Positions 4,336-7,300 of a DNA stretch of 64,000 bases are shown piece by piece. The stretch's first letter is position 1; every line of letters begins with the position of its first letter. Location: the NCBI RefSeq assembly GCF_058153355.1, contig NZ_CM177019.1; one strand, given 5' to 3'. A program made the position numbers.

Positions 4336-7300
4336 TGATCTGATTCGGGCGCGGTTCTCGCGCCCGTTATTAACAGGTCATTTATCGGAAGACGCCTGCC
4401 ACAGATTCAGCTCGCCATCGGCGATATGCTGATCAATCTGCGCCAGCTCCTCGGTGCTAAATGTCAGATTATTCAGCGCCTGCACGTTCTCCTCAAGTTG
4501 CTCCGCGCGGCTGGCACCAATCAATACCGACGTCACTCGCTCATCTTTCAGCAACCAGCTTAACGCCATTTGCGCCATTGATTGTCCACGCTGCTGTGCC
4601 ATTTCATTCAATAACCGCAGGCTGTTGAGGTTGGCTTCGGTGAGCATTTTCGGCGTCAGGCCACGAACTTTATTCCCTTCACGATGCATACGTGAATTTT
4701 CAGGAATACCGTTGAGATATTTTCCGGTCAGCAATCCCTGGGCCAGAGGAGTAAAGGCAATGCAGCCCACGCCGTTATGTTGCAGGGTATCCAGCAGGCC
4801 GCTTTTATCCACCCAGCGGTTCAGTAAATTGTACGAAGGTTGATGAATTAACAGCGGAATTTTCCACTCGCGCAGCAACTCGACCATTTTTTGCGTCCGC
4901 TCTGGCGAGTAAGAGGAGATCCCGACATAAAGCGCCTTACCGCTTTGTACCGCATGAGCCAGCGCAGAGGCGGTTTCTTCCATCGGCGTATTTTCATCGA
5001 CGCGATGAGAGTAAAAGATATCGACATACTCCAGCCCCATCCGCTTCAGGCTTTGGTCGAGGCTGGCGAGCAGGTATTTACGTGAGCCGCCAGAGCCGTA
5101 CGGGCCGGGCCACATATCGTATCCGGCTTTGGTAGAGATAATCAGTTCATCGCGATAAGCGGCAAAATCCTCCCGCAGCAGGCGACCAAAGTTCTCTTCT
5201 GCGCTTCCTGGAGGCGGCCCGTAATTGTTGGCTAAATCAAAGTGCGTAATGCCCAAATCAAACGCTTTGCGCAGGATCGCACGCTGTGATTCCAGTGCGT
5301 TAACGTGACCGAAATTGTGCCATAAACCGAGCGATAACGCGGGCAGGCGTAAACCGCTTTTTCCGCAATAGCGGTATTGCATCTGCCCGTAACGTTCGGG
5401 ATTCGCTAACCAGACCATGACCTCTCCTTTCCACCATTCAATTTCGAAACAATGTTTCCAGTTTAGCGATTTACCAGGGGGGATCCCGTAGCATCGCTCA
5501 CAGTGTGACGAAAAACTGGGCAAAAACACGTGCTTATGCTTTGCTTAAAAAAACACCAATTGAGGAGTGCAATGATGCCGCGTCTGACCGCTAAAGATTT
5601 CCCACAAGAGTTGCTGGATTACTACGACTATTACGCTCACGGGAAAATTTCGAAACGTGAGTTCCTCAACCTTGCGGCGAAGTATGCGGTGGGCGGGATG
5701 ACGGCATTAGCGTTGTTTGATTTGCTCAAGCCAAATTATGCGCTGGCGACTCAGGTAGAGTTTACCGACCCGGAAATTGTTGCTGAGTACATCACGTATT
5801 CTTCGCCAAATGGTCACGGCGAGGTACGGGGTTATCTGGTGAAGCCCGCAAAGATGAGCGGCAAAACGCCAGCCGTGGTGGTGGTGCATGAGAATCGTGG
5901 ACTGAATCCGTATATCGAAGATGTGGCACGGCGAGTAGCGAAGGCGGGGTATATCGCCCTGGCACCTGACGGCTTAAGTTCCGTTGGAGGTTATCCGGGT
6001 AATGATGATAAAGGTCGTGAGCTGCAACAGCAGGTTGATCCAACCAAACTGATGAATGATTTCTTTGCCGCAATTGAGTTTATGCAACGCTATCCGCAAG
6101 CGACAGGCAAAGTGGGTATTACCGGATTTTGCTATGGCGGTGGTGTATCGAACGCGGCGGCTGTCGCGTATCCGGAACTGGCCTGCGCGGTGCCGTTTTA
6201 TGGTCGTCAGGCACCCACTGCCGATGTGGCGAAGATTGAAGCGCCTTTACTGCTCCACTACGCGGAACTGGATACCCGAATCAACGAGGGCTGGCCCGCT
6301 TACGAGGCGGCGTTGAAAGCCAATAATAAGGTCTATGAGGCGTATATCTATCCGGGGGTTAATCACGGATTCCATAATGATTCCACGCCCCGTTATGACA
6401 AATCTGCCGCCGATCTTGCCTGGCAAAGGACGCTGAAATGGTTCGATAAATATCTCTCCTGATAGGTTTATCTCTTACGGGATTACGTCTTAAACAAGCA
6501 TGAAAAAATAGCGTGCGCAAAAGTCGTTCTTTGCCTAAAATATCGCTATATATGACAATATATAGCGAATGAGGTGAACGATGAATAACCATTTTGGTAA
6601 AGGCTTAATGGCGGGATTAAAAGCAACGCATGCCGACAGTGCGGTTAATGTGACAAAATACTGTGCCGATTATAAACGCGGTTTTGTATTAGGCTACTCA
6701 CACCGGATGTACGAAAAGACCGGAGATCGCCAGCTTAGCGCCTGGGAAGCGGGGATTCTGACGCGCCGCTATGGACTGGATAAAGAGATGGTAATGGATT
6801 TCTTTCGTGAGAATAATTCCTGTTCTACGTTGCGCTTTTTTATGGCCGGTTATCGCCTCGAAAATTGATCAAACATACGTATTATCTTGCTTTAATTAAT
6901 TACACTAATGCTTATTCCCTTCGTTTTAGTGCCCCGCCGCAGTATCATGATATCGATAACCATAATAAATGTGTGGTAAATGGCGCATCGATCGCATTAT
7001 TGATTTTGCGATTGAGGCAAAATATATGCCAGGTCTTCGCAACGGAATAACTATAAATGACTGGAGATAACACCCTCATCCATTCTCACGGCATTAACCG
7101 TCGTGATTTCATGAAGCTTTGTGCAGCATTAGCCGCCACCATGGGGTTAAGTAGCAAAGCCGCTGCAGAAATGGCCGAATCGGTTACTAACCCGCAGCGT
7201 CCGCCAGTTATCTGGATTGGCGCGCAGGAGTGCACCGGTTGTACGGAATCTCTGCTTCGTGCAACGCATCCAACGGTAGAAAACCTCGTGCTGGAGACTA

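What the first reader, a model, noticed from the sequence alone, without database searches (positions are those of the whole stretch)
5572..6462. yghX reads as a full-length hydrolase
The frame is open for about 296 aa with intact alpha/beta-hydrolase motifs. I recall it as frameshifted in K-12; together with intact yghO and gspC-M this marks the strain as carrying the less decayed form of the region.
Basis: partly seen in the sequence, partly recalled or inferred. Interest (0 to 1): 0.25.

Follow-up and report, generated by a model that had tools for sequence, protein, structure and literature searches.

The report
Intact yghX hydrolase gene, ordinary
This is the ordinary, undamaged copy of the E. 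coli gene yghX, a dienelactone-hydrolase-type enzyme that is probably exported to the periplasm; it looks special only because the laboratory strain K-12 carries a version broken by two small deletions.

Summary
Window 5572-6462 (+) is an open frame of 296 codons, or 295 from the likelier start at 5575. It is full-length yghX: NCBIfam YghX 586 bits over 1-292/292, and Pfam DLH. The Cys186/Asp233/His264 triad and Glu106 are intact.

K-12 MG1655 is annotated "frameshifted" and carries two lesions. One is a 2-bp deletion at window 5683-5684 (codon 37). The other is a 1-bp deletion at 6044 (codon 157).

Being intact is not a distinction. Of 5,426 complete E. coli genomes, about 3,785 have the undeleted sequence at site 1 and 1,505 carry the 2-bp deletion. 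Of those genomes, 1,199 carry the 1-bp deletion.

The "less decayed region" reading is only partly right. yghO and gspS2-gspM are open and K-12's two deletions are absent. But ETEC H10407 combines K-12-type broken yghX with intact gspC-M, sslE and yghO, so the lesions are independent. This window also has its own decay: IS4 splits sslE, and an IS110-family element sits between sslE and pppA.

Two further points. The N-terminus is a Tat-type signal: RR in most homologues, KR here. K-12's "small protein" YqhI is the 47-aa stump of broken yghX.

Already known; low interest.

The parts
5575..6462 (+). yghX coding sequence, 295 aa plus stop. An alternative in-frame ATG at 5572 would give 296 aa.
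5562..5567 (+). Shine-Dalgarno GAGGAG, 7 nt upstream of the ATG at 5575
   Evidence: sequence
5575..5748 (+). N-terminal 58 residues: a conserved pre-motif segment (Pfam YqhI-like, PF23678), then S-K-R-E-F-L, a mildly hydrophobic stretch and A-L-A. Read as a Tat-type signal peptide, KR variant.
   Evidence: The PDB 4ZV9 construct lacks this segment.
5650..5667 (+). Codons for S26-K27-R28-E29-F30-L31, the position of the twin-arginine motif in homologues
   Evidence: Alignment A2: R at position 27 in 28/32, R at 28 in 30/32, F at 30 in 28/32
5683..5684 (+). The 'TA' (codon 37) that is deleted in K-12, H10407 and YPE10. Present here.
6044..6044 (+). The 'C' (codon 157) that is deleted in K-12 and H10407 but not in YPE10. 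Present here.
5890..5892 (+). Glu106 codon (H-E-N-R-G), aligned with Glu36 of Pseudomonas dienelactone hydrolase
6130..6132 (+). Cys186 codon, the nucleophile in the G-F-C-Y-G elbow. It aligns with residue 123 of ClcD.
   Evidence: Cys in 30/32 homologues
6271..6273 (+). Asp233 codon, the triad acid
   Evidence: Asp in 32/32
6364..6366 (+). His264 codon, the triad base
   Evidence: His in 30/32
4378..5418 (-). gpr (yghZ), the divergent upstream neighbour, listed for context. The 5418 start is inferred from the 1,041-bp CDS annotated in K-12 and Z0117EC0005.
6581..6868 (+). yghW (DUF2623), the downstream neighbour, listed for context

Best explanation
Window 5575-6462 is the functional allele of E. 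coli yghX. It encodes a 295-aa alpha/beta hydrolase of the dienelactone hydrolase (DLH) family with a Cys186-His264-Asp233 triad plus Glu106. By analogy with ClcD, the thiolate would attack an ester or lactone carbonyl, form a thioester acyl-enzyme, and be released by water. The first ~58 residues look like a Tat-type signal peptide: an n-region, S-K-R-E-F-L, a weakly hydrophobic h-region and A-L-A. The folded enzyme is therefore most likely exported to the periplasm. The physiological substrate is unknown. K-12 and a large part of its relatives lost the gene through a 2-bp deletion inside the signal-peptide h-region (codon 37). In most of those genomes a 1-bp deletion at codon 157 followed. 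What K-12 still translates is a 47-aa stump that has been named YqhI. Shown here: the gene's identity, its full length, the conserved catalytic residues, the K-12 lesions and their frequencies. Inferred: the chemistry (by homology) and the Tat export (from motif conservation).
For: Identity and completeness: NCBIfam YghX at 586 bits covering 1-292/292; Pfam DLH at E 3e-48. PDB 4ZV9 'uncharacterized protein' matches residues 59-294 almost identically (E 8e-160). Catalysis: alignment to ClcD variant 4u2c places Cys186 on residue 123, with the Asp, His and H-E motif aligned. In 32 full-length family members, Cys occurs in 30, Asp in 32 and His in 30. Purifying selection: 15 synonymous versus 2 non-synonymous differences between the window and K-12. 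Export: RR at the aligned K27-R28 in 28 and 30 of 32 sequences, F in 28/32, AxA in 20-24/32. The N-terminus of homologue P0008 passes TIGR01409 TAT_signal_seq at 20.6 bits against a cut-off of 16.7. The h-region is only mildly hydrophobic, with a maximum Kyte-Doolittle value of 1.55. The 4ZV9 depositors left out the first ~59 residues. K-12 lesions. Frequencies among 5,426 complete genomes: 2-bp deletion allele 1,505 versus undeleted 3,785; 1-bp deletion allele 1,199 versus undeleted 4,221. YPE10 carries only the 2-bp deletion on an otherwise K-12-identical allele. Expression signals work: YqhI = MPRL...AAK + CGRRDDGISVV was detected in K-12 (PMC6001520), and yqhI transcripts rise under low Mg2+ (PMC11429745).
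Against: No enzymatic activity or substrate has been reported for YghX; 4ZV9 is deposited as 'uncharacterized protein'. The E. coli sequence has K-R rather than R-R and does not itself reach the TIGR01409 threshold. No dedicated signal-peptide predictor was available, and no export experiment was found (one search returned nothing). Gene neighbourhoods of two distant homologues share nothing with E. coli, so context gives no clue to the substrate. The allele counts rely on exact 28-mer seeding. About 135 genomes were not classified at site 1, and other inactivating mutations elsewhere in the gene were not surveyed.
Confidence: 0.9

Rival explanations
1. The N-terminal hydrophobic stretch is not a cleaved Tat signal. 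It would instead be an uncleaved signal-anchor or a Sec-type signal, giving an inner-membrane-tethered or Sec-exported hydrolase.
For: E. coli has K-R instead of R-R and fails the TIGR01409 cut-off. The conserved ~25-residue segment before the motif (Pfam PF23678) is unusually long for a plain signal peptide.
Against: RR-x-F-L is nearly invariant in the family. The h-region is short, Gly/Thr/Ala-rich and contains an Asp (AVGGMTALALFDLL; maximum hydropathy 1.55), which is weak for a membrane anchor or a Sec signal. A-x-A follows in most members. A Lys in the c-region (K52) fits Sec avoidance.
Confidence: 0.2
2. YghX is a cytoplasmic enzyme and its N-terminal 58 residues form a regulatory or oligomerisation segment.
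For: The K-12 stump YqhI was classified as a putative soluble protein (PMC11429745). Classical dienelactone hydrolases such as ClcD are cytoplasmic and lack this extension (the alignment starts at residue ~70).
Against: The segment has the full n/RR/h/AxA layout across the family, and one member passes the curated Tat model. YqhI lacks the h-region, so its solubility says nothing about the full protein.
Confidence: 0.1
3. The open frame here is intact only in appearance. The gene would be functionally dead, through missense changes or silencing, and on its way to the K-12 state.
For: The gene has been lost without obvious cost in at least 28% of complete genomes. The window's allele is rare, with only 33 genomes at 99% identity or more.
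Against: All catalytic residues are present. There are only 2 amino-acid differences from the K-12 conceptual protein, against 15 synonymous changes. The sequence is 100% identical to an allele annotated as an intact CDS. The promoter and ribosome-binding site are shown to work in K-12.
Confidence: 0.05

Closest known systems
YghX family hydrolase (NCBIfam NF041440); crystal structure PDB 4ZV9, deposited as 'uncharacterized protein'
   Same: Full-length match at 586 bits against a cut-off of 460. Residues 59-294 are nearly identical to the 4ZV9 chain. The chromosomal position between gpr and yghW/hybO is the same as in annotated E. coli genomes.
   Different: Nothing of substance. This allele differs from most E. 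coli alleles by 2-4.5% at the DNA level.
K-12 yghX pseudogene (historically the fragments yghX and yghY; Swiss-Prot 'Putative hydrolase fragment YghX') and the small protein YqhI
   Same: Same locus and 97.6% DNA identity. YqhI's first 36 residues equal YghX residues 1-36.
   Different: K-12 has a 2-bp deletion at codon 37 and a 1-bp deletion at codon 157. Only a 47-aa stump is made from the native start. The window has neither deletion.
Dienelactone hydrolase ClcD of Pseudomonas (carboxymethylenebutenolidase, EC 3.1.1.45; PDB 1DIN and 4U2C)
   Same: Same Pfam family (PF01738). Cys-His-Asp triad and the Glu of the H/Q-E motif align.
   Different: The sequence relationship is distant (E about 5e-15). 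ClcD is cytoplasmic, has no N-terminal signal, and sits in a chlorocatechol degradation operon. yghX has a 58-residue Tat-like N-terminus and no such pathway genes nearby, so dienelactone is unlikely to be its natural substrate.
Twin-arginine (Tat) signal peptides, TIGR01409
   Same: n-region, (S/T)-R-R-x-F-L position, weakly hydrophobic h-region, a basic residue in the c-region, and A-x-A. A family member passes the curated model.
   Different: The E. coli sequence has K-R, not R-R, and does not pass the model. A conserved L-Y-D-x-Y-x-H segment precedes the motif, and that segment is not part of generic Tat signals.

Membership tests
YghX family hydrolase (NCBIfam NF041440) | Whole-protein score above the curated cut-off, with end-to-end coverage of the model | tested here: met
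   586.3 bits against a cut-off of 460; protein 4-295 on profile 1-292/292
YghX family hydrolase (NCBIfam NF041440) | Orthologous chromosomal position in E. coli (gpr - yghX - yghW - hybO) | tested here: met
   Same order in the window and in K-12, Z0117EC0005 and H10407
Dienelactone hydrolase family (Pfam PF01738) | Match to the DLH profile above the gathering score | tested here: met
   164.6 bits against 21; profile 1-217/217
Dienelactone hydrolase family (Pfam PF01738) | Cys(Ser)-His-Asp triad at the canonical positions | tested here: met
   Cys186, Asp233 and His264 align with the ClcD triad positions and are conserved in 30-32 of 32 homologues
Dienelactone hydrolase family (Pfam PF01738) | Carboxymethylenebutenolidase activity (EC 3.1.1.45) | not testable with these tools
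   No activity data were found. No chlorocatechol pathway genes lie next to yghX.
Tat (twin-arginine) signal peptide | Consecutive arginines in (S/T)-R-R-x-F-L-K | tested here: not met
   The window has S-K-R-E-F-L. Homologues have R-R in 28 and 30 of 32 at these columns. The E. coli N-terminus gave no TIGR01409 hit, whereas homologue P0008 scored 20.6 bits against a cut-off of 16.7.
Tat (twin-arginine) signal peptide | Weakly hydrophobic h-region followed by a c-region with a basic residue and A-x-A | tested here: met
   AVGGMTALALFDLL has a maximum hydropathy of 1.55; K52; A56-L57-A58
Tat (twin-arginine) signal peptide | Tat-dependent export of the folded protein | not testable with these tools
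   An experiment is required. The literature search found nothing.
K-12-type yghX pseudogene | 2-bp deletion at codon 37 and/or 1-bp deletion at codon 157 | tested here: not met
   Both sites carry the undeleted sequence in the window

The most novel reading that the evidence does not exclude
The YghX family is a widespread group of Tat-exported periplasmic thiol hydrolases. Its signal peptides carry a conserved extra segment (L-Y-D-x-Y-x-H) ahead of the twin arginines, possibly a docking site for a proofreading chaperone or a device to keep the catalytic Cys away from periplasmic oxidation until the protein has folded. The K-12 'stress-induced small protein' YqhI would then be nothing more than the n-region of that signal peptide left behind by a frameshift. 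That would explain why its deletion phenotype could not be complemented by the peptide.
Probability: 0.45. Interest if true: 0.3.

Novelty: already known. Interest (0 to 1): 0.08.

Why it matters
It matters little for discovery. The gene, its family, a crystal structure of the orthologue, and K-12's pseudogene status are all on record. K-12's yghX is even used routinely as a neutral integration site (PMC7677707). Three practical points follow.

1. K-12 is the exception at this locus, but not a rare one. About 22-28% of complete E. coli genomes share its lesions.
2. Intact yghX cannot serve as a marker for an intact T2SS-beta/yghO region.
3. People studying the small protein YqhI should know that it is the stump of a broken hydrolase gene, namely the front of a Tat-like signal peptide plus 11 out-of-frame residues.

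Tried and rejected
- I looked for functional clues in the gene neighbourhoods of two distant homologues, P0005 and P0018. No neighbours were shared, so nothing could be said about the substrate.
- I searched the literature for a dienelactone hydrolase reported as a Tat substrate. No papers were found.
- The promoter/terminator scan of 5300-6700 returned no more sites than shuffled sequence and none on the + strand upstream of yghX. It was uninformative.
- I tried to find the source genome. The best complete E. coli genome is only 99.0% identical over window 1-22000. No genome carries this IS4-in-sslE junction at high identity; two genomes have one at 94.4%. The strain is therefore not in that collection.
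- I first guessed that the 326-aa ORF at 47754-48734 was an IS5 transposase because of its length. I rejected this: it matches the IS110/IS116/IS902 transposase families and gave no listed blastn match to the K-12 segment that contains IS5.
- I considered that K-12's two deletions, which sum to 3 bp, might still give a functional protein. I rejected this: the native frame stops 11 codons after the first deletion, and the 120 codons in between are out of frame.
- No structure prediction was run, because a solved structure (4ZV9) already covers the mature domain.

Full report
**1. What is at the coordinates**

The ORF listing gives one long + strand frame at 5530-6462. Within it, ATG codons lie at 5572 and 5575. 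The second ATG is the likelier start, for four reasons:
- The GAGGAG at 5562-5567 is 7 nt from 5575 but only 4 nt from 5572.
- PGAP starts the CDS at the second ATG in a genome whose yghX is 100% identical (NZ_CP098223).
- The first ATG is ACG in K-12.
- The K-12 product detected from this start reads MPRL... (PMC6001520).

The neighbours are gpr (yghZ) divergently upstream, and yghW, hybO and hybA downstream. This is the same order as in K-12 and other E. coli.

**2. What it is**

- The protein matches NCBIfam NF041440 "YghX family hydrolase" at 586 bits (cut-off 460) over the whole 292-position model.
- It matches Pfam DLH (PF01738) over the whole 217-position model, E 3e-48. A short N-terminal Pfam domain, "YqhI-like" (PF23678), covers residues 2-37.
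- It is therefore not truncated relative to orthologues.
- Residues 59-294 are almost identical to PDB 4ZV9, deposited as "uncharacterized protein" (E 8e-160).
- Alignment with a variant of Pseudomonas dienelactone hydrolase (4u2c) puts Cys186 (G-F-C-Y-G) on residue 123, with the triad Asp (Asp233) and His (His264) and the H-E motif (Glu106) aligned (numbering).
- In an alignment of 32 full-length family members taken from a search of 1.8 billion representatives, Cys occurs in 30, Asp in 32 and His in 30.

**3. The comparison with K-12**

RefSeq annotates MG1655 yghX as a pseudogene, "frameshifted". Pairwise and three-way alignments show two lesions:
- a 2-bp deletion (TA, window 5683-5684, codon 37);
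- a 1-bp deletion (C, window 6044, codon 157).

The native frame ends 11 codons after the first deletion. The next 120 codons are in another frame, and the C-terminal part returns to the original frame.

The remaining differences are 15 synonymous and 2 non-synonymous substitutions. That is the signature of a gene under purifying selection until recently.

**4. How special is the intact form?**

I designed 52-54-nt probes across each lesion. An allele of the other type shares at most 27 consecutive bases with each probe, which is below megablast's 28-base seed. Results among 5,426 complete E. coli genomes:

| Site | Deleted allele | Undeleted allele |
|---|---|---|
| Site 1 (2-bp deletion) | 1,505 | 3,785 |
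| Site 2 (1-bp deletion) | 1,199 | 4,221 |

- About 135 genomes were unclassified at site 1 and 5 at site 2.
- The deleted alleles occur in many natural isolates from humans, pigs, chickens and water, not only in laboratory strains.
- Strain YPE10 has the 2-bp deletion alone on an allele otherwise identical to K-12. This fits the order 2-bp deletion first, 1-bp deletion second.
- Divergent alleles such as EC958 (95.5% identity) span the query without net length change, and homologues in other taxa are full length.

Intact is therefore the ancestral and majority state. An intact yghX is ordinary.

**5. The "less decayed region" claim**

The part that holds:
- yghO (30311-31453, 380 aa) and gspS2, gspC, D, E, F, G, H, I, J, K, L and yghD/gspM (49917-60798) are all open, with the lengths annotated in strain Z0117EC0005.
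- K-12 lacks window 21977-30351. There an IS5 sits next to yghO, yghQ is truncated, and the first ~40 nt of yghO are not K-12-like.
- K-12 also lacks window 51299-59296 (gspC' joined to gspL').

The parts that do not hold:
- The lesions are independent. ETEC H10407 carries both K-12 yghX deletions and is annotated frameshifted. Yet it has gspC-M, sslE, a 380-aa yghO and the adjacent acyl-AMP ligase gene intact.
- The window has decay of its own. A 1,426-bp IS4 (43115-44540; transposase 43128-44474 on the - strand, Nterm_IS4 + DDE_Tnp_1; 13-bp duplication CACCTTCAATCTG) splits sslE, the first gene of the sslE-pppA-gspS2-gspC-M gene row.
- A ~1.28-kb IS110-family element (about 47562-48839; 326-aa transposase) also lies between sslE and pppA.

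**6. How the protein most likely works**

*Chemistry (inferred by homology).* A Cys-His-Asp triad hydrolyses an ester, lactone or thioester through a thioester acyl-enzyme, as in ClcD. The natural substrate is unknown. There are no chlorocatechol pathway genes nearby, and the neighbourhoods of two distant homologues share nothing.

*Location (inferred from conservation).* The first 58 residues have the layout of a Tat signal:
- At the positions of E. coli K27-R28-E-F-L, homologues have R-R-x-F-L (R in 28/32 and 30/32; F in 28/32).
- A short Gly/Ala/Thr-rich stretch of low hydrophobicity follows (maximum 1.55).
- A-x-A is present in 20-24 of 32.
- The N-terminus of homologue P0008 passes the curated TIGR01409 Tat model (20.6 bits against 16.7). 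The E. coli KR version does not.
- The 4ZV9 construct omits this segment.

I put Tat-dependent export to the periplasm at about 0.6, a Sec signal or membrane anchor at about 0.2, and a cytoplasmic location at about 0.1. From general knowledge, natural K-R Tat signals exist, but I did not test export. A conserved L-Y-D-x-Y-x-H segment ahead of the motif remains unexplained.

**7. A by-product: YqhI**

The 47-aa K-12 "small protein" YqhI is MPRLTAKDFPQELLDYYDYYAHGKISKREFLNLAAKCGRRDDGISVV, listed in the paper's table between yghX_2 and gpr (PMC6001520). It is exactly YghX residues 1-36 followed by the 11 out-of-frame codons created by the 2-bp deletion. It is the front of a signal peptide, cut before its hydrophobic core.

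A later study found that yqhI transcripts rise at low Mg2+, and reported a deletion phenotype that the peptide could not complement (PMC11429745). That fits a stump without a function of its own, and it shows that the yghX promoter and ribosome-binding site are active.

**8. Verdict**

The feature is an already known, ordinary gene in its majority state. Interest is low.

Noticed in passing
window 43115-44540 (transposase ORF 43128-44474, - strand); sslE fragments about 41453-43114 and 44541-47466: A 1,426-bp IS4 element with a 13-bp target duplication (CACCTTCAATCTG at 43102-43114 and 44541-44553) splits sslE (yghJ), the first gene of the sslE-pppA-gspS2-gspC-M gene row. No complete RefSeq E. 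coli genome has this junction at high identity; two genomes have an IS4 in sslE at 94.4% identity.
   Followed up: partly
window about 47562-48839 (ORF 47754-48734, + strand): An insertion of about 1.28 kb between sslE and pppA encodes a 326-aa IS110/IS116/IS902-family (DEDD) transposase. From memory, its size and protein length fit IS621, but this was not verified. It may separate the gsp genes from upstream sslE transcription.
   Followed up: partly
window 21977-30351: An 8.4-kb block is absent from K-12, where an IS5 sits next to yghO and yghQ is truncated. In a related annotated genome the block encodes LptF/LptG paralogues, serine palmitoyltransferase (spt), an acyl carrier protein, an NAD-dependent epimerase and a fatty acyl-AMP ligase. 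This looks like a lipid or sphingolipid-type biosynthesis cluster.
   Followed up: no
window 5575-5682 (YghX residues 1-36); K-12 locus L001 3002-3145: The K-12 small protein YqhI (47 aa) is the N-terminal stump of frameshifted yghX: 36 native residues plus 11 out-of-frame ones. The two papers that study it (as read) treat it as an independent small protein.
   Followed up: yes
window about 5605-5640 (YghX residues about 11-22, ELLDYYDYYAHG): A segment conserved across the family (consensus L-Y-D-x-Y-x-H) lies just ahead of the twin-arginine position and is covered by Pfam PF23678. It is not part of generic Tat signals and has no known role.
   Followed up: partly
window 1-22000 and 5572-6462: The window's strain is not among 5,426 complete RefSeq E. 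coli genomes. The best match is 99.0% over 22 kb. The yghX allele is at 99% identity or more in only 33 genomes, and later parts of the window are only 88-97% identical to the same best genome, which suggests a mosaic region.
   Followed up: partly
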